Shown here piece after piece: positions 1 through 58,607 of a stretch of DNA of 58,644 nt. The translations under genes and the position numbers were made by a program. The first letter of the stretch is position 1, and every line of letters starts with the position of its first letter. Source of the stretch: a virus (lineage: Duplodnaviria > Caudoviricetes); IMG/VR virus record IMGVR_UViG_3300022895_000130, positions 1 to 58,644 of that record. One strand, 5' to 3'. Under the pieces are notes generated by a model. That model made no database searches. It was not told where the DNA came from and was given only the letters and a program-made list of their open reading frames with translations.

Positions 1-240
1 GCTGTCGTCGAAGCCACGGTGCAACGTGCGCGACCGGTACTGTTGACAGCCCTGGCGGCGATCCTGGCGTTCATTCCCCTGACACACTCGGTGTTCTGGG
101 GGACGTTGGCCTATACCCTGATTGGCGGTACGCTCGTCGGCACCGTCATGACGCTGGTGTTCCTGCCCGCGATGTACTCGATCTGGTTCAAGATCGGTCC
201 CGACGCCAGGGCGCGGGCTGCAATAGTCAAACCGATGTAG
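1..240 (+). CDS. RND efflux permease (AcrB/AcrD/AcrF family), C-terminal part; gene begins before the window
   Basis: Open from base 1; RARPVLLTALAAILAFIPL...GG...T..TL.FLPA.Y is the typical last-two-TM signature of RND permeases. Confidence 0.85.
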   Translation, partial: AVVEATVQRARPVLLTALAAILAFIPLTHSVFWGTLAYTLIGGTLVGTVMTLVFLPAMYSIWFKIGPDARARAAIVKPM

Positions 241-5777: not shown

Positions 5778-6827
5778 CTATTTCGACGGCTTCGCGATGG
5801 CCCCGACGCGCCGATAAACTCGCTCGGTGATATCGCCTTTCGTGTGACCCAGAAGCAGACTTGCATCGCCGATATCGCTGATTTCCGACGCGGCTTTCGG
5901 ACGGATATCACGGAACTGGAACTCACCGATCCGGCTGGCCAACAGTTCATCACCCTGTTCAAGGGCGTCCTGTTTTGCCTTTTCCCGCGAAGCGTCCCAG
6001 CGCTTCCTCAGCATTGTGGCCGTCATCCGTTTACCGCTCCGGTTGATGATCAGGTAACTCGAAACGTGCTGGGCATTTCGCTCTGTGATTGCTGCGATCA
6101 GCTTGCCCAGGCTGTTTGATTCCCCGCCGGTCGTGATCTGGATGCGAAGCTTCTTCTGCGTCTTGTTTTGCTGAACGGTCAGATACCCGCCTTCAACATC
6201 ATCCTTCCTCATGACCAGCACGTCTGCCGGCCGCTGGCCGGTCAGGTATGCCAGGTCCATCGCTTCTTTCAGCTCCTGAGCTGCCTTCTTGTACACTGCC
6301 TCCCAAACCACATCATTCGCGTAATAGTCCCTCGGCGTTTCCTTGTTCTTGCGCACGCCCTGACAGGGGTTTTCCTTTGTCGTCAGGCCCCACTCCCGGG
6401 CAATGTTGAAAATGTGGGAGAGGGTAGCGATCTCGCGGTTGGCCCTGACCTTTGCCGATCGGGCATCACGATAGCCGGCAATCGTTGCCGGCGTGATCGA
6501 GTCAATCGGCGCGCTGTCGAACATCGGTCGCAGCTGTTTGATTTCCGCCAGGTTGTCCTTCTGCGTGCGCGGCGCCTTCTTGGGCACCACGTCGCGGATG
6601 TACCGATCGAAGATGCCTTTCATGGTGCGCAGGTCGAGCGGCTTTTCCTTGGCTTCCAGCTCGGCCCACTTCAATCTGGCTTTATCGAGATCCTTGCCCA
6701 GTGGTATGTCTTTGCCGAGCAGGTCACGGTAGTAGTAGGCCGTCCAGATGGTACCGTTCTTGCGTTTTCGGGATCGTTTGTACATCCGTGGGGGAAGATG
6801 ATGGTGCTCGGTCTTGCGGGGGCGCAT
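5778..6827 (-). CDS. int: tyrosine recombinase (phage integrase)
   Basis: LTGQR, FRDIRPK, LLGH, T..VY catalytic motifs; next to att. Confidence 0.95.
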   Translation of the reverse strand: MRPRKTEHHHLPPRMYKRSRKRKNGTIWTAYYYRDLLGKDIPLGKDLDKARLKWAELEAKEKPLDLRTMKGIFDRYIRDVVPKKAPRTQKDNLAEIKQLRPMFDSAPIDSITPATIAGYRDARSAKVRANREIATLSHIFNIAREWGLTTKENPCQGVRKNKETPRDYYANDVVWEAVYKKAAQELKEAMDLAYLTGQRPADVLVMRKDDVEGGYLTVQQNKTQKKLRIQITTGGESNSLGKLIAAITERNAQHVSSYLIINRSGKRMTATMLRKRWDASREKAKQDALEQGDELLASRIGEFQFRDIRPKAASEISDIGDASLLLGHTKGDITERVYRRVGAIAKPSK

Positions 6828-6828
6828 A

Positions 6829-7071
6829 TCAGTTCACTCGCGAATAGTCTGGCGTCCATGCCGGCGCGGCCGGTGGCGGGTTGGGGTCGGCAATCGTAGG
6901 GCTGATCATGCCCAGCTTCATGCGGGCGTACATGCGGCCCACCAGCGGGCGCTTGCCTCTGCTTTCGACGAACACCCACTGGCGATCAATCAGCCAGCGG
7001 CGTTGGTAGGCCCTGGCCTTGTAGCCGGTGAGCTCGGCCAATTCCTCGTCGGAGAGGATTTCGGTTTCCAT
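6829..7071 (-). CDS. DUF4224 family protein, putative excisionase
   Basis: LSDEELAELTGYK....Q.RWL motif; directly upstream of int; start chosen at METEIL after GGAG. Confidence 0.75.
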   Translation of the reverse strand: METEILSDEELAELTGYKARAYQRRWLIDRQWVFVESRGKRPLVGRMYARMKLGMISPTIADPNPPPAAPAWTPDYSRVN

Positions 7072-7106
7072 GGGATTCTCCACGCCGCCGGCGGCGGCAG
7101 AAGGTT

Positions 7107-7955: not shown

Positions 7956-8681
7956 TTATAAAGCGAGTTCGACTTGTGCTTCGCGCTGCCAGATCGGGGA
8001 ACTGTTGTGTGCTTCGATTCGATCCGCGATGACGTTGGCGCGCTGGCCGGCAGTGGGCGGGGCGTACATCCCGAAACGGCTGATGCTTCCGCCGTTCACT
8101 GCGGCGTTCGTGGAATCGGCTGAAGCGAAGGGAAGGTGCTGGAAAATCGCAGGATCAAGCATGCGCAGACCGTGTAGCCGGCACACCGGTCGGCCCTGAT
8201 CGTCACAGATCGCGTCCATCGCAGCACCCATCCGCTTCCACCATGATCCTGTGCCCGGCGCAGCCCATTGCCCAGAACTTCCGAGGGCAACCGTCCGCCA
8301 GCACCTCGCCAGCCGCTGCAGCCGCTCAAGCGATTCGTGCAAGTGCCATACAGGCACGCCGCGAAGATCCTCTGGCCATTGCCGTACAAGTTCGTCGTTG
8401 GCCTCTTCATCACCATCAATGACGTCCGGAATAAGCGCCCAAGTGAATCCAGGGTGTCGGTGCCAGTCTTCGACCCAGCGCGTGTAGCCGTCGACGTCCA
8501 CCTGGCCGCCTTTCTTCCACACAGTGAATGCGCCGTTATCGAAAACAAACGATTTGCAAACATCGGCGACGATGCCGAGATCGTCCTTGCGTGGGAACGG
8601 CACCAGCGCGTGCCGCCCGGCCAGGAACTTAGCGGCATCCTCGCGCTTACCGCCGACAGGCGTGCCGTGGTAATGAATCAT
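7956..8681 (-). CDS. TGT-fold transglycosylase-like protein (DpdA-like)
   Basis: FVFDNGAF, IPDVI, PVWH, ALGS, LHGL, SADST motifs in TGT/DpdA order. Confidence 0.75.
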   Translation of the reverse strand: MIHYHGTPVGGKREDAAKFLAGRHALVPFPRKDDLGIVADVCKSFVFDNGAFTVWKKGGQVDVDGYTRWVEDWHRHPGFTWALIPDVIDGDEEANDELVRQWPEDLRGVPVWHLHESLERLQRLARCWRTVALGSSGQWAAPGTGSWWKRMGAAMDAICDDQGRPVCRLHGLRMLDPAIFQHLPFASADSTNAAVNGGSISRFGMYAPPTAGQRANVIADRIEAHNSSPIWQREAQVELAL

Positions 8682-8923
8682 CCGCTGAGCCTCACCGTTT
8701 CGATTTCCACGCCCTGGTGTGTGGCGATGATGGTCTGATCGCCGCCGAGCGTTTCGGACAAGCTGTCGGCGATTTGCTCGTGCCAGCCATGCTTGATCAG
8801 TGCCGTCGCCGTTTTGATGTGTTCAACATGGATCATCGATGTCGATCGCAATTCAAGGCGGTAGATGATCGTTTCGCCGTCGGCTGGACAGACTGCTGCG
8901 AAGGTGTGCCGGTAGATGTTCAT
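8678..8923 (-). CDS. small T-fold, QueF/QueF-L-like protein
   Basis: F.AVCP, VE, WHEQIAD, terminal H.GVEIETV strand; ATGA overlap with the TGT-like gene. Confidence 0.65.
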   Translation of the reverse strand: MNIYRHTFAAVCPADGETIIYRLELRSTSMIHVEHIKTATALIKHGWHEQIADSLSETLGGDQTIIATHQGVEIETVRLSG

Positions 8924-9012
8924 CGCCACGGCCCCTTGTAGATGAGGTAGGCCATGTAGAGCGGGGAGCCAGCCGTGAGAACGGGGAGCAGAGCGGGGAT
9001 CAGGAAGAACAT
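8920..9012 (-). CDS. 30-aa hydrophobic peptide (MFFLIPALLPVLTAGSPLYMAYLIYKGPWR)
   Basis: Manually translated; GGAGG RBS; stop overlaps next ATG. Confidence 0.5.
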   Translation of the reverse strand: MFFLIPALLPVLTAGSPLYMAYLIYKGPWR

Positions 9013-11105: not shown

Positions 11106-11716
11106 TCAATTGTCTGTCCCTGTGTAGGTGCGCCAAGGCACCTTCACGCCGTTTACGAGGAATCCCCAGTCACCGCGCCACTTGCTGGTGATGAAGAGAG
11201 TGAAGACGCCGCCGGGGGATACCTGGTCGATGCGGTGGTATTCGCCGTGGTTGAGGCGGGCGGTGTCGCCCTCGGAGCGCTGAATCCATTCGCAGGCATC
11301 GCGCATGAGCCAATCAACCCACTTCTGATTAGGCGGCGAGACCATCCCGTCCATAACTGCCTGCTTCCACTCCTCGCCGGCAGGCCGCTGCTCCGTGTAC
11401 CAGCCGCGCAGGATGATCGTTCGGGCGTTCCATGGGTGATCGTTCGGGCGTTCCATGGGTGATCGTGCAGATCCCGGTCGTTGTCCTCGCGCAGGATGTG
11501 GTGGATCCTGAACGACCACGGGCACCACCAGAACGTCGCCTTGTGCGTCTCCCGGCTGTACGGGTTGAACAGCCACCAGCGGCCCATGTACATCTCGGTG
11601 CCGTCGGCGGACATGATGTGCTGGTACGGGGTGAGCTTGGCGCGGGCGATGAGCCAGTCGGCGATTGCCGGGCGCGCGATTACCTTGGCGAGGATTCGCC
11701 AGAAGATGTTCAGCAT
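11106..11716 (-). pseudogene. cupin-fold (dioxygenase-like) gene frameshifted by a 23-bp tandem duplication
   Basis: N-half ends LHDHPWNARTI, C-half begins DHPWNARTIILRGWYTE in another frame; removing one copy gives a 588-nt ORF. Confidence 0.8.
11414..11466. repeat. 23-bp tandem duplication TGATCGTTCGGGCGTTCCATGGG x2 plus TGATCGT
   Basis: Copies at 11414-11436 and 11437-11459, 7-bp microhomology at 11460-11466. Confidence 0.95.
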
Positions 11717-11884
11717 GGATGGCGTCCTATGCCGGGGCATGCCCGGTGCAATAAATTGATGTTTAATCGCATTTACAGAAAATTTCGATGCTCTTAGCCA
11801 GAATTTTGGTTGATAAGTGGATTGACGGGCGTGTGCTATGATAGGTGCAGGTGTCCAGTGTCTTATAGTTAGTACGAGGTCTTA

Positions 11885-14599: not shown

Positions 14600-15268
14600 T
14601 TAAGCTCCCAATCTGTGGGCCTGTGCCCGTGCTCTGTCGGCGACTTCATCAACCATCCTGCCGAGTTCCAGATTGAACTGGACCAGCTCTTGATGAAGTA
14701 TCGCGATGTACTCGTCATCGCGTTTGATGGTCTCGATGTACAGCCGGCAGTCTTCGTCTTGCCGTGGATCGAATGACAGAAAATCCCACCATTCCCGGCC
14801 GGTGACGAACATGCAGCCTTGAACCTGCGGCTTGTGTTCTTCGGGCATTCCTTCGAGCCAGGTGCGGACGTGAACGGCTTCATTGAATGGGCACTTCGAC
14901 TCAATGCCGCCGTCCTCGCCAATCAAGCCGTCCGGCGAGCAGCCCAGCCAGTCGTATTTTGGGTGAACCACAAAGCCCGATTTGATGACGGTATTTCCGG
15001 TGAGAATTTCGTAAAAATCGTGGCTCGACTGCTCGACTTCTGTGCCCCAGGCCATCGACTTGCTGCTGACCGAATGCTTCGATCGGTTCGCCAAGCGTTC
15101 AAAGGCCAGCTCACGCATGTAGGTAGTTCGGGCAGCAAGTGGCTTGCGTTTGCCATGCTTATCACGATCTCCCCAAGCGATCACATCCTTGAACCTGCTG
15201 GCTGTCAGGCGCCCGCTGCGGTCCTGGTGCCACTGCTCGGTGCGCTGAAGATCTACAGCGGTGTTCAT
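14600..15268 (-). CDS. lambda-exonuclease / YqaJ family
   Basis: W...R.GRLTAS, M.WG..E, GCSPDGL, ESKCP, QVQG.M motifs. Confidence 0.92.
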   Translation of the reverse strand: MNTAVDLQRTEQWHQDRSGRLTASRFKDVIAWGDRDKHGKRKPLAARTTYMRELAFERLANRSKHSVSSKSMAWGTEVEQSSHDFYEILTGNTVIKSGFVVHPKYDWLGCSPDGLIGEDGGIESKCPFNEAVHVRTWLEGMPEEHKPQVQGCMFVTGREWWDFLSFDPRQDEDCRLYIETIKRDDEYIAILHQELVQFNLELGRMVDEVADRARAQAHRLGA

Positions 15269-16245
15269 TGGCTGCCTCCTTGCTGATCGCTTTCAGCATG
15301 AGTGTCGGCGCTTTCGTTGACGGTCGTGAACTCCGCATCTATGGTCTGCGCAATCGTCTTAAGTTCGCCGTGACGGGTTACGCCAATGGCGCCGCGCTGC
15401 TGAGGTTTCAGCGCCTTCCAGGCTTTTTCGTAGCCGTCAATTCCTTGCTCCTGAGCGACCTTTTTCAACTGCTCGAACAGGTCTGCGGTTGCGTCGGTGG
15501 TGTCACCTTGAGGAACTGACGCGGCACCTACGTCTGACGGCTTTTCGTTGGTAGATCTCGGGGTGACGTCTGTTTCCGGAAGCGTATAGCCGTCGTCCAG
15601 CTCGTCGCGGGTGTACACGCCCAAGATTACGTCAGGGCAATACAGGCGAGCCCACTTTTTGAGGGCTAGGTACGCGATCTGCTGCTTCGGATCGTCCGCC
15701 CATAGCGTAGAGTTTCGGGTTCGTGCCTGAGTCATCAAGGTTGTCAGTTCGCGGGGAGCGTCTTCGCCAACGAAGGTAGCCCAGACGCGGACGCCAAGGC
15801 CTTTCTCGTCGTTTATGTTCCAGTTTGGAACGCGGTATTTCTTCGGCTGTCCGTGATCATCCGTTTGCTTTTTGCTTTCGATTTCACGGAAGTTGCCAAT
15901 GATCTTGTCCCAGTCGCCAAACCACTCGTAATGGATTCGATCAAGGGTCGGTGCTCGGGTGGTGATTACCGCATTGACTAGCTGCGCTTCGTAGCTCAGT
16001 TGGCCACCGTTGACGATGAACGTCTTCTGCGCCACCTGGAAGGGGTTCATACCCCATTGCATGGACTGCATGATCACCGCCATGCAGTCGGCGGTGTTTC
16101 CGTGGAAGTGTTTCGGCAGGGTGGTTTTGCCACCTGCCATGATGCCTGCGAGCTCAGTCATCGATTGCATGCTGTCGCGATTGAGGATCAGGCCCGTCGG
16201 GCTGGTGTCCATTGGTACGGTAGCAATCTGGGTTTGTGCGTTCAT
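15265..16245 (-). CDS. recT: RecT family single-strand annealing protein
   Basis: LP.HF.GN.ADCMAV.MQ..QWGMNPF.VAQKT, W..DPKQQIAYLA.K.WARLYCPDVILGVY. Confidence 0.88.
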   Translation of the reverse strand: MNAQTQIATVPMDTSPTGLILNRDSMQSMTELAGIMAGGKTTLPKHFHGNTADCMAVIMQSMQWGMNPFQVAQKTFIVNGGQLSYEAQLVNAVITTRAPTLDRIHYEWFGDWDKIIGNFREIESKKQTDDHGQPKKYRVPNWNINDEKGLGVRVWATFVGEDAPRELTTLMTQARTRNSTLWADDPKQQIAYLALKKWARLYCPDVILGVYTRDELDDGYTLPETDVTPRSTNEKPSDVGAASVPQGDTTDATADLFEQLKKVAQEQGIDGYEKAWKALKPQQRGAIGVTRHGELKTIAQTIDAEFTTVNESADTHAESDQQGGSQ

Positions 16246-16299
16246 CGTTAACTCCATAGCCGACGACTTTGGTCGGCCTCCGGGGTGAATTCGGGTTCG

Positions 16300-58518: not shown

Positions 58519-58579
58519 ATGGCGGAGGCGATGGGATTCGAACTCATGGACCTGTTACAGTCGACGGTTTTCAAGACCG
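58519..58579. repeat. prophage attachment core, right junction
   Basis: Identical to 5593-5653. Confidence 0.95.
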
Positions 58580-58607
58580 TTGCCTTAAACCACTCGGCCA
58601 CACCTCC
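58520..58607 (-). tRNA. tRNA-Ser (anticodon UGA)
   Basis: GGAGGTG acceptor stem, ACGGT-CTTGAAA-ACCGT anticodon arm, long variable arm, GTTCGAATC, encoded CCA. Confidence 0.95.

What the first reader, a model, noticed from the sequence alone, without database searches (positions are those of the whole stretch)
7956..8923. Minimal two-gene TGT/DpdA-like plus QueF-like T-fold cassette: candidate 7-deazaguanine modification system in a temperate phage
Seen: the 241-aa protein has DNGAF, IPDVI, PVWH, ALGS, LHGL and SADST in the order of the TGT barrel motifs and lacks the CxCxxC zinc site. It is ATGA-coupled to an 81-aa protein with F.AVCP...VE...HEQ. Known: these match TGT catalytic and base-binding positions (Asp102, Asp156, Asp280 in Zymomonas numbering). 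Phage DpdA inserts 7-deazaguanines into DNA to block restriction, and QueF/QueF-L T-folds use a CP cysteine and an HE glutamate to act on preQ0. I see no folE, queD, queE or queC in the prophage. Inference: the phage takes host preQ0 from the queuosine pathway and makes a derivative with only two genes. The T-fold lacks the NADPH-binding QueF motif and the Asp normally 7 residues after the Cys, so the chemistry may be new, or it may be a non-catalytic partner. A tRNA target is not excluded.
Basis: partly seen in the sequence, partly recalled or inferred. Interest (0 to 1): 0.88.

Follow-up and report, generated by a model that had tools for sequence, protein, structure and literature searches.

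The report
Phage DpdA with QueF-L-like partner
A temperate Pseudomonas phage carries a DNA guanine-swapping enzyme (DpdA) welded to a tiny, undescribed relative of the archaeal enzyme QueF-L, a pair that probably steals the host's preQ0 to disguise phage DNA from restriction.

Summary
Both ORFs, every quoted motif and the ATGA overlap are present.

**The 241-aa protein is a phage DpdA.**
- It matches phrog_887 at E 2e-68.
- Its family profile hits the validated DpdA genes of phages 9g, CAjan and 7-11.
- Its four best fold matches among 48,161 chains are arcTGT, Cap10, DpdA and bTGT.

**The 81-aa protein is a high-confidence single T-fold.**
- Model pLDDT is 97.7.
- The best structural match is archaeosine synthase QueF-L: Z 12.9, rmsd 1.1 Å, 81 of 81 residues aligned.
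- The Cys-Pro and His-Glu positions are conserved. The QueF Asp and the NADPH motif are missing.

**The two genes travel together.**
- All 179 of 179 loci holding a T-fold homologue have a DpdA gene beside it, in either order.
- Sometimes a YhhQ-like transporter, a QueD-like gene or a deoxyribosyltransferase-like gene sits between them.
- No preQ0-synthesis genes are in the window.
- QueC is absent from 31 of 31 related viral records, while 5 of 5 host genomes have QueC and QueF.

**Verdict.** This is a host-preQ0-dependent DNA 7-deazaguanine module with an undescribed partner family. The partner's chemistry is inferred, not shown.

The parts
7956..8681 (-). dpdA: 241-aa phage DpdA-family DNA guanine transglycosylase (TGT superfamily, no zinc subdomain). 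Stop codon at 7956-7958.
   Evidence: ORF. phrog_887 E 2.3e-68. AF2 model pLDDT 89.9. VIA-align top four are arcTGT Z 16.1, Cap10 15.3, DpdA 7ui4 14.5 and bTGT 13.8. The family profile hits the DpdA genes of 9g at 6e-15, CAjan at 1e-17 and 7-11 at 6e-54.
8678..8923 (-). 81-aa single-domain T-fold protein, QueF-L-like, of an undescribed family (phrog_37496, 'unknown function'). Stop codon at 8678-8680.
   Evidence: ORF. phrog_37496 E 3e-43. No Pfam or NCBIfam hit. AF2 pLDDT 97.7 with beta-beta-alpha-alpha-beta-beta topology. Foldseek top hits are 5k0p/5jyx. VIA-align gives 5jyx_A Z 12.9, rmsd 1.1, 81/81 aligned.
8678..8681 (-). ATGA overlap: stop of the T-fold gene and start of dpdA, implying translational coupling.
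   Evidence: Read. The same 4-nt overlap geometry (DpdA begins at the last base of the T-fold match) recurs in most of the 80 close viral loci.
8932..8937 (-). Shine-Dalgarno-like AAGGGG, 8 nt upstream of the T-fold ATG.
   Evidence: Read. This is inference only.
5778..7083 (-). Integrase (5778-6827) and excisionase (6829-7083). They lie at the promoter-distal end of the same leftward gene string, which marks the element as temperate.
   Evidence: ORFs. Excisionase is phrog_4764, E 8e-33. The integrase is named from its sequence features only and was not scanned.

Best explanation
This is a two-gene, translationally coupled DNA-hypermodification module in the int/xis-proximal early operon of a temperate Pseudomonas phage.

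Step 1 (family shown, activity inferred). The 241-aa DpdA exchanges guanines in phage DNA for a 7-deazaguanine base by the TGT double-displacement mechanism. D48 acts as general acid/base and D189 as nucleophile.

Step 2 (inferred from gene content). The base is host preQ0, because the phage has no folE, queD, queE or queC, while Pseudomonas hosts make preQ0 on the way to queuosine.

Step 3 (fold and residues shown, chemistry inferred). The 81-aa partner is a stripped-down QueF-L-like T-fold, probably a homo-oligomer. Glu49 anchors the 2-amino-4-oxo edge of preQ0. Cys12 attacks the nitrile to give a covalent thioimide, as in QueF and QueF-L. With no NADPH motif it cannot reduce the nitrile. 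I think it most likely converts it without a cofactor, to the amidine (dG+) or by hydrolysis to the amide or acid (dADG/dCDG). This would happen either on dPreQ0 already in DNA, as QueF-L does on tRNA, or on the free base before DpdA inserts it.

The likely result is phage DNA that resists host restriction.
For: DpdA identity:
- phrog_887 at 2e-68.
- The family profile finds exactly the annotated DpdA genes of 9g (6e-15), CAjan (1e-17) and 7-11 (6e-54).
- 9g DpdA alone puts dPreQ0 into E. coli plasmid DNA, CAjan delta-dpdA loses dPreQ0, and DpdA-only phage 7-11 carries dADG (PMC6884629, passages).
- D48/G50/A51/F52, H113, G134, H170 and D189/S190 are invariant in an alignment that includes 9g and CAjan.
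- The four best of 48,161 chains are all TGT-superfamily.

T-fold identity:
- QueF-L is the best match by Foldseek (E 3e-4, TMq 0.73-0.75).
- It is also best by VIA-align (Z 12.9, versus 10.1 for the next; rmsd 1.1 Å; 81/81 aligned; 22% identity; model 1..81 = chain 10..102).
- That range places Cys12 on QueF-L Cys21, the thioimide cysteine (PMC5485725), if the first strand is ungapped.
- hhalign against a QueF C-domain profile pairs Cys-Cys, HE-HE and G..R in one register (P 1.3e-3).
- The protein-atlas lead is a QueF cluster (0.87).
- Conservation: Cys12 77/78, Glu49 78/78.

Linkage:
- 83/83 and 96/96 loci have DpdA adjacent on the same strand. DpdA is upstream in about 17 of the 96.
- Genes inserted between the pair include Vut_1/YhhQ-like (L148), PTPS/QueD-like (L109, L158) and Nuc_deoxyrib_tr-like (L113).
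- Fusions of a PTPS-like domain with the T-fold exist: P0237 and P0256.

Precursor supply:
- The window has no QueC, PTPS, FolE or radical-SAM.
- 0 of 31 related viral records have QueC.
- 5 of 5 host genomes have QueC and QueF.
Against: - The general acid/base Asp of QueF and QueF-L is absent. The homologous position is Ile/Val/Thr in 78/78 members, so thioimide chemistry may be impaired or different.
- Sequence-level homology to QueF is weak. Pfam QueF gives no hit at E<=1 for the protein, nor at E<=10 for any of 78 members. A PDB profile search found nothing. hhalign probability is only 18.7%.
- I have no residue-level superposition on QueF-L.
- The family is mostly acidic (59 of 78 with net negative charge). 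That is not what one expects of a DNA-binding enzyme, although DpdA itself is also acidic.
- The T-fold is dispensable for some DpdAs. Only 4 of 121 phage records with a DpdA homologue have it. Six T-less DpdAs nest inside the T-fold-linked ones on the tree.
- T-less phage 7-11 still makes dADG, but at only about 0.02% of Gs.
- No host genome is available for this window, and the record is 90% complete. No modification data exist for any phage carrying the pair.
Confidence: 0.55

Rival explanations
1. The T-fold is a preQ0 trap or carrier rather than a converting enzyme. It binds free host preQ0, possibly as a reversible Cys12 thioimide, keeps it away from host QueF (which would reduce it to preQ1), and feeds it to DpdA. 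DNA then carries plain dPreQ0, at a higher level than DpdA alone achieves.
For: - QueF-L forms a stable thioimide with free preQ0 that does not turn over (KD 8 uM; PMC5485725).
- Host QueF has a sub-micromolar KM for preQ0 (0.237 uM; PMC5372742), and 5/5 hosts encode QueF, so free preQ0 should be scarce.
- DpdA-only systems reach only 0.02-0.3% of Gs.
- The catalytic Asp is missing, and the family is mostly acidic.
- The genes found between the pair act on free bases or precursors: YhhQ-like, QueD-like and deoxyribosyltransferase-like.
Against: - Near-invariant Cys12, Glu34, His69 and Arg78 look more like a catalytic set than a mere binding site.
- A covalent trap must release its cargo, and no mechanism for that is evident.
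- No evidence that the two proteins touch.
Confidence: 0.2
2. The T-fold binds another purine or pterin, or nothing, and serves as a structural or regulatory subunit of DpdA (for example for target choice or stability). The Cys would have no role in nitrile chemistry.
For: - T-folds in general bind purines and pterins. GTP cyclohydrolase I, FolX, PTPS and DHNA all score Z 8-10 against the model.
- The Asp is missing.
- The ATGA coupling suggests stoichiometric co-production.
Against: - QueF-L stands about 3 Z units above every other T-fold, at rmsd 1.1 Å.
- The Cys-Pro and His-Glu pairs sit in the QueF register.
- In this pathway only QueF-type T-folds carry that cysteine.
- The pair is often separated by other genes or reversed in order. 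This argues against an obligate co-translational complex.
Confidence: 0.12
3. The pair acts on tRNA, not DNA. The transglycosylase inserts preQ0 into host or phage tRNA and the QueF-L-like protein makes archaeosine there, retuning translation.
For: - QueF-L's known substrate is preQ0-tRNA.
- Databases name the large protein 'queuine tRNA-ribosyltransferase'.
- arcTGT is the top structural match.
Against: - The protein belongs, by profile, to the phage DpdA family, whose tested members act on DNA.
- It lacks the zinc subdomain and the C-terminal tRNA-binding domains of TGT and arcTGT: 241 aa against 577 for the arcTGT chain 1iq8_A.
- The window has only one tRNA gene, at its far end.
Confidence: 0.05

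Closest known systems
QueF-L (archaeosine synthase, Pyrobaculum calidifontis; PDB 5k0p/5jyx)
   Same: Single T-fold domain and best structural match (Z 12.9, rmsd 1.1 Å, 81/81, 22% identity). The cysteine sits at the position of the thioimide Cys21. There is no NADPH-binding QueF motif. It works downstream of a TGT-family transglycosylase.
   Different: About 20 residues shorter (81 aa against chains of 99-109). The position that holds Asp62 in QueF is Ile/Val/Thr in 78/78 members. Not detectable by HMMER against PDB. Viral and bacterial rather than crenarchaeal. Its partner is a DNA enzyme, not a tRNA enzyme. Cui/Hutinet 2023 state that no phage QueF aligned with QueF-L (PMC10516641, passage).
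QueF (NADPH-dependent preQ0 reductase, unimodular and bimodular)
   Same: T-fold (Z 9.6 to 4f8b). The Cys-Pro, (F/Y/W)-His-Glu and G-x-x-I-x-x-x-R blocks are collinear. A Glu (E34) sits 22 residues after the Cys, where the QueF motif's Glu78 lies 23 after Cys55.
   Different: Fails two of the four features used to define QueF: Asp62 and the E(S/L)K(S/A)hK(L/Y)(Y/F/W) motif (PMC5372742). No Pfam PF14489 hit. It therefore cannot be an NADPH reductase of the known type.
Phage DpdA (9g, CAjan; 'DpdA-only' group such as Salmonella phage 7-11)
   Same: Same protein family by profile. Same invariant Asp, His and Asp positions. Like group 3 of Hutinet 2019, no preQ0 genes are present in the phage.
   Different: About 70 residues shorter than 9g and CAjan DpdA (241 against 317 and 306 aa). 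Always paired with the T-fold in the lineages sampled here, whereas 9g, CAjan and 7-11 have none.
Bacterial Dpd system (DpdA/DpdB insert preQ0, DpdC makes ADG)
   Same: A TGT-fold DNA transglycosylase uses host-made preQ0. A second protein may process the nitrile after insertion. The fold match to DpdA 7ui4 is Z 14.5.
   Different: No DpdB ATPase or DpdC here, and no restriction half. The candidate nitrile-processing protein is a T-fold and is unrelated to DpdC.
Gat-QueC / ArcS / DpdL routes in phages
   Same: Accessory enzymes that diversify the 7-deazaguanine inserted by DpdA. DpdL is also a T-fold (QueD-like).
   Different: Those phages also carry preQ0 or CDG synthesis genes. This module has none, and its T-fold is of the QueF type, not the QueD type.

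Membership tests
Phage DpdA (DNA 7-deazaguanine transglycosylase) | Sequence homology to experimentally validated phage DpdAs | tested here: met
   Profile A5 hits one place each in 9g (6e-15), CAjan (1e-17) and 7-11 (6e-54). In 9g and CAjan these places are the genes annotated as tRNA-ribosyltransferase next to folE/queD/queC. phrog_887 at 2e-68.
Phage DpdA (DNA 7-deazaguanine transglycosylase) | TGT-type TIM barrel | tested here: met
   VIA-align over 48,161 chains: arcTGT Z 16.1, Cap10 15.3, DpdA 7ui4 14.5, bTGT 13.8. Generic TIM barrels start at 13.3, so the margin is modest. Foldseek top hits are TGT.
Phage DpdA (DNA 7-deazaguanine transglycosylase) | General acid/base Asp with a stacking Phe four residues on (Asp95/Phe99 in S. 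Montevideo DpdA), and a nucleophile Asp (Asp256) | tested here: met
   D48...F52 and D189 are invariant in 26 subfamily members and in the alignment with 9g and CAjan. Residue roles are taken from PMC10164549. The equivalence rests on motif order and alignment, not on 3D superposition.
Phage DpdA (DNA 7-deazaguanine transglycosylase) | Base-recognising Asp (Asp130 in bDpdA, Asp156 in TGT) | tested here: inconclusive
   D86 is invariant in the subfamily. In the MAFFT alignment, however, the Asp of 9g and CAjan falls under D89, not D86.
Phage DpdA (DNA 7-deazaguanine transglycosylase) | Inserts a 7-deazaguanine into DNA | not testable with these tools
   Needs LC-MS/MS of DNA.
Bacterial/archaeal tRNA-guanine transglycosylase (Pfam PF01702) | Pfam TGT match and the CxCxxC...H zinc site | tested here: not met
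   No Pfam hit at E<=1. No PF01702 match in the window. Four cysteines, none in a CxCxxC.
QueF (NADPH-dependent nitrile reductase) | Catalytic Cys (Cys55) and substrate-anchoring Glu (Glu97) | tested here: met
   Cys12 (77/78) and Glu49 (78/78). They align with the Cys and the HE of a QueF C-domain profile.
QueF (NADPH-dependent nitrile reductase) | Asp62, seven residues after the Cys | tested here: not met
   Position 19 is Ile in 61, Val in 16 and Thr in 1 of 78. It aligns without a gap to the QueF Asp.
QueF (NADPH-dependent nitrile reductase) | QueF motif E(S/L)K(S/A)hK(L/Y)(Y/F/W) for NADPH binding, and a Pfam PF14489 match | tested here: not met
   Here the segment reads E34-H-I-K-T-A-T-A, and the family consensus has no lysines in register. 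No PF14489 hit for the protein or any of 78 members.
QueF-L (archaeosine synthase) | QueF-like T-fold lacking the NADPH motif, with the thioimide Cys | tested here: met
   5jyx_A Z 12.9, rmsd 1.1, 81/81. Model residue 1 maps to chain residue 10, so Cys12 corresponds to Cys21 if the first strand is ungapped.
QueF-L (archaeosine synthase) | Conserved Asp general acid/base | tested here: inconclusive
   Absent at the position homologous to QueF Asp62. I had no QueF-L sequence or coordinates for a residue-level check. D/N15 is not a conserved acid (D in 40, N in 32 of 78).
QueF-L (archaeosine synthase) | Converts the preQ0 nucleoside in a nucleic acid to G+ using free ammonium; decameric tunnel | not testable with these tools
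   Needs enzymology and an oligomer structure.

The most novel reading that the evidence does not exclude
The 81-aa protein founds a new branch of QueF-type T-folds. It would be an Asp-less, cofactor-free nitrile-processing enzyme, obligately wedded to DpdA. With only two genes it would let temperate phages parasitise the host queuosine pathway and write a 7-deazaguanine other than plain dPreQ0 into their DNA. Candidates are dG+ by a new route, dADG/dCDG by hydratase- or nitrilase-type chemistry on the thioimide, or an unknown base. If true, a share of the 'DpdA-only' phages of Hutinet 2019 would in fact be two-component systems.
Probability: 0.35. Interest if true: 0.85.

Novelty: new variant of a known kind. 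Interest (0 to 1): 0.7.

Why it matters
7-Deazaguanine DNA modifications are a major phage counter-defence. The largest group of DpdA phages, those with no precursor genes, has had an unknown modification status since 2019 (PMC6884629, section 8).

This module shows that a sizeable subset of such phages carries a second dedicated gene. The family has at least 294 clusters at 50% identity and occurs in phages of Pseudomonas, Dyella, Rhizobium and Microcystis.

The gene offers three things:
- a concrete candidate for the missing step that supplies or converts the base;
- a minimal T-fold (81 aa) for studying nitrile chemistry without NADPH or the canonical Asp;
- a two-gene cassette that can be tested directly in E. 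coli.

A cultured phage, Pseudomonas phage Epa33, carries the pair, so experiments are feasible now.

Tried and rejected
- **Single-sequence searches.** Neither protein found a relevant match in the PDB. Pfam and NCBIfam found nothing for either.
- **Profile searches against PDB sequences.** The T-fold profile and the DpdA profile gave only chance-level hits. The link to QueF-L, TGT and DpdA structures therefore rests on fold comparison, PHROGs and profile hits in phage genomes.
- **First hhalign run.** Against five host QueFs it gave the right register but E 0.063. A broader QueF C-domain profile improved this to P 1.3e-3.
- **Complex prediction of DpdA with the T-fold.** It returned no verdict: score 0.00, controls not run. 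It says nothing either way.
- **The search for related loci.** Three single-protein scans with distant members (P0225, P0188, P0256) found nothing. Sub-alignment A4 then worked.
- **The search of earlier findings.** Searches by place and by sequence returned nothing.
- **UniRef label.** One relative (P0061) is labelled 'DUF3509'. Pfam does not support this.
- **Papers not held.** The QueF-L structure paper (PMC5167649) and Phillips 2012 (PMC3289047) are not held. QueF-L residue roles come from PMC5485725 and PMC5372742 only.
- **Literature searches for a described T-fold partner of DpdA.**, plus passages of 10.64898/2026.04.15.718813, found none. Supplementary tables of Hutinet 2019 and Cui 2023, which list per-phage gene content, could not be seen and might mention this gene.
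- **Rejected idea: the T-fold explains dADG in phage 7-11.** That phage has no homologue.
- **Rejected idea: a conserved 30-aa membrane peptide upstream.** It is only weakly conserved.
Full report
**What is there.**

On the minus strand, one search gives a 241-aa ORF (7956..8681) and, overlapping it by ATGA (8678-8681), a small ORF. Read from the ATG at 8923 the small ORF is 81 aa. The family alignment begins at that Met. An AAGGGG box lies 8 nt upstream.

- DNGAF 48-52
- IPDVI 84-88
- PVWH 110-113
- ALGS 132-135
- LHGL 169-172
- SADST 187-191

There is no CxCxxC. In the small protein, Cys12-Pro13, Glu34 and His48-Glu49 are present.

The pair lies in a leftward gene string that runs integrase (5778-6827), excisionase (6829-7083; phrog_4764), a 211-aa unknown, dpdA, the T-fold, several unknowns, and a RecT-like gene (15265-16257). 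This is the accessory stretch of the early-left operon of a lambdoid temperate phage.

The window is a complete IMG/VR record of 58,644 bp, rated 90% complete. No host genome is attached.

**The large protein.**

Pfam and NCBIfam are silent. PHROGs places it in phrog_887, 'queuine tRNA-ribosyltransferase', at E 2.3e-68.

tblastn finds homologues in 121 phage records. They are mostly temperate phages of Vibrio, Salmonella, Escherichia and Klebsiella, plus Pseudomonas phage Epa33 at 78% identity.

A profile of 26 diverse homologues (A5) hits a single place in each of three reference phages:
- 9g, E 6e-15
- CAjan, E 1e-17
- Salmonella phage 7-11, E 6e-54

In 9g and CAjan these places are the annotated transglycosylase genes next to folE/queD/queC.

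Those are the experimentally anchored DpdAs (PMC6884629, passages):
- 9g DpdA alone installs dPreQ0 in E. coli plasmid DNA.
- CAjan delta-dpdA loses its 32% dPreQ0.
- 7-11, which has only DpdA, carries dADG at about 0.02% of Gs.

In an alignment with 9g and CAjan, the invariant residues are D48, G50, A51, F52, H113, G134, H170, D189 and S190. By motif order these match the general acid/base Asp95 with Phe99 and the nucleophile Asp256 of the solved bacterial DpdA (PMC10164549). The base-binding Asp is ambiguous between D86 and D89.

The AF2 model has pLDDT 89.9. Its four best matches among 48,161 chains are arcTGT (Z 16.1), Cap10 (15.3), DpdA 7ui4 (14.5) and bTGT (13.8). Ordinary TIM barrels start at 13.3.

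I conclude that it is a short, zinc-less member of the phage DpdA family. That much is already known biology.

**The small protein.**

It falls in phrog_37496, 'unknown function'. It has no Pfam hit, nor do any of 78 relatives at E<=10.

An exhaustive HMMER scan finds 294 clusters at 50% identity.

The AF2 model is very confident (pLDDT 97.7) and has the beta-beta-alpha-alpha-beta-beta order of a T-fold.

Foldseek ranks the archaeosine synthase QueF-L first (5k0p/5jyx; E 3e-4; TMq 0.73-0.75), ahead of GTP cyclohydrolase I, QueF and dihydroneopterin aldolase.

The Foldseek-independent VIA-align scan agrees:

| Match | Z | Notes |
|---|---|---|
| QueF-L 5jyx_A | 12.9 | rmsd 1.1 Å, 81/81 residues, 22% identity |
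| GTP cyclohydrolase I | 10.1 | |
| QueF 4f8b | 9.6 | |
| FolX, PTPS | about 9.4 | |

The aligned ranges (model 1..81, chain 10..102) put Cys12 on residue 21 if the first strand is ungapped. Cys21 is the thioimide cysteine of QueF-L and equals Cys55 of B. subtilis QueF (PMC5485725).

Profile-profile alignment to a QueF C-domain profile is weak (P 1.3e-3, probability 18.7%). Even so, it sets Cys on Cys, His-Glu on His-Glu, and the C-terminal G-x-x-I-x-x-x-R on RGGLDINPYR. A protein-language-model look-up also points to a QueF cluster, as a lead only (score 0.87).

Conservation across 78 members:

| Residue | Kept in |
|---|---|
| Cys12 | 77 |
| Pro13 | 77 |
| Glu34 | 76 |
| His48 | 64 (Gln in 14) |
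| Glu49 | 78 |
| Asp53 | 72 |
| His69 | 77 |
| Arg78 | 74 |

Of the four features used to define QueF (Cys55, Asp62, Glu97 and the QueF motif; PMC5372742), two are met and two are not. Position Cys+7 is Ile, Val or Thr in all 78. The NADPH motif is absent apart from its leading Glu.

So it works like a QueF/QueF-L active site in outline. It is not a QueF, and I cannot file it as a QueF-L.

**Linkage.**

Every locus I could examine that encodes a T-fold homologue has a DpdA homologue beside it on the same strand:
- 83 of 83: 80 viral contigs plus phages Epa33, Microcystis Mae-JY30 and Rhizobium RHph_X2_30.
- 96 of 96: 16 bacterial genome loci, all prophage-like, from Pseudomonas, Phytopseudomonas and Dyella, plus 80 viral contigs of a distant 'HHGV' branch.

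The order is usually T-fold then DpdA. It is reversed in about 17 of the 96 and in Mae-JY30.

In several loci another gene is inserted between the two:
- a Vut_1/YhhQ-type queuosine-precursor transporter (L148; also two genes upstream in the Rhizobium phage);
- a PTPS/QueD-like protein (L109, L158);
- a nucleoside 2-deoxyribosyltransferase-like protein (L113, L139, L150);
- an HTH regulator.

Two database proteins fuse a PTPS-like domain to the T-fold (P0237, P0256; E about 2e-4, just under Pfam's cut-off).

Conversely the partner is not universal. Only 4 of 121 phage records with a DpdA homologue have it. Six sampled T-less loci have no HMM hit within 2 kb.

On a maximum-likelihood tree of 35 DpdAs, those six fall in two places inside the T-fold-linked diversity. 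This needs at least two changes. The sample is biased, because the T-fold-linked rows were chosen through the T-fold.

**Precursor supply.**

The window has no QueC, PTPS, FolE, radical-SAM, QueF, TGT or Vut_1 by six-frame Pfam search.

Among 31 longer viral records carrying the pair, 0 have QueC; 23 of those records are at least 90% complete. With the window added, 1 of 32 has PTPS and none has a Vut_1 match above the cut-off.

I checked five bacterial genomes that carry related prophages. All five have QueC and a bimodular QueF. The hosts therefore make preQ0 and normally reduce it at once.

**Mechanism.**

Shown:
- family membership of DpdA;
- the T-fold with a QueF-type Cys and Glu;
- strict linkage of the two genes;
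- lack of precursor genes.

Inferred:
- DpdA replaces G in phage DNA with a host-derived 7-deazaguanine.
- The T-fold binds preQ0 through Glu49 and attacks its nitrile with Cys12.

Because it cannot use NADPH, I favour a cofactor-free conversion, to the amidine as in QueF-L or to the amide or acid by hydrolysis of the thioimide. This could happen on DNA or on the free base.

The main rival is a trap or carrier that shields scarce preQ0 from host QueF. Four points support it:
- QueF-L's thioimide with free preQ0 is a stable dead end.
- The catalytic Asp is missing.
- The family is mostly acidic (59/78).
- The neighbouring genes act at the free-base level.

A tRNA target, or a purely structural role, is less likely.

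**Novelty.**

The DpdA half and the idea of host-supplied preQ0 are in print (PMC6884629, section 8 read in full).

I found no description of this T-fold family or of its pairing with DpdA in five full-text searches. Cui/Hutinet 2023 report that no phage QueF aligned with QueF-L (passage). Supplementary gene tables of those papers were not available to me.

I rate this a new variant of a known kind: a known modification system with an undescribed, widespread and tightly linked component of uncertain chemistry.

Noticed in passing
window 8920-9012 (-): A 30-aa hydrophobic ORF (MFFLIPALLPVLTAGSPLYMAYLIYKGPWR). Its TGA overlaps the T-fold ATG (a second ATGA), and its ATG lies inside the end of the 166-aa ORF upstream. 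Among the stored loci only one shows a full-length match at 73% identity; most matches cover just the last 15 codons. It may not be a gene.
   Followed up: partly
L109:5245-5646 and L158:5249-5656; proteins P0237, P0256: PTPS/QueD-like proteins sit between the T-fold and DpdA, or are fused N-terminally to the T-fold. In place of QueD's CxxxHGH they read SxxxHGH (RxxxHGH in P0256). They are therefore neither canonical QueD nor DpdL (LxxxHRHxF). Function unknown.
   Followed up: partly
L113:1515-1883, also L139 and L150: A nucleoside 2-deoxyribosyltransferase-like gene (PF05014, E 2e-10) is inserted between the T-fold and DpdA. This hints at base or nucleoside salvage linked to the module.
   Followed up: partly
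L148:1711-2181; L002:3221-3751: Vut_1/YhhQ-family (queuosine-precursor transporter) genes lie inside or next to the pair, in a viral contig and in Rhizobium phage RHph_X2_30 (E 8e-11 and 3e-13).
   Followed up: yes
L113, L134, L139, L149, L150 (T-fold ORFs): Some T-fold genes carry a conserved C-terminal extension of about 45 aa (…GRLTQRV.VG..V.EKGVEAIHAIKA…) of unknown function.
   Followed up: no
proteins P0181, P0254, P0143, P0132: Longer database proteins (179-443 aa) end in the T-fold. Their N-terminal regions have no Pfam match. They may be gene-call run-ons or real fusions.
   Followed up: partly
G001, G002, G005 (host genomes of L084, L090, L099): Three of the five host genomes have two full-length QueC matches. 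Whether the second copy belongs to a dpd island or to another prophage was not examined.
   Followed up: no
model m37e15b611cdc: The second-best structural match of the DpdA model is Cap10 (Z 15.3). The PDB entry title describes it as a Cap10-CdnD complex containing an NDG modification.
   Followed up: no
window 11153-11740 (-) and 58520-58607 (-): A 195-aa protein has a partial match to phrog_4786, 'cysteine dioxygenase' (E 1e-17). A tRNA-Ser(TGA) gene lies at the far end of the record from the integrase.
   Followed up: no
L003 (Pseudomonas phage Epa33) 5985-8075: In Epa33 the pair is followed directly by a 696-aa C-5 cytosine DNA methylase. The window instead has a 211-aa unknown protein with no PHROG match.
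   Followed up: no
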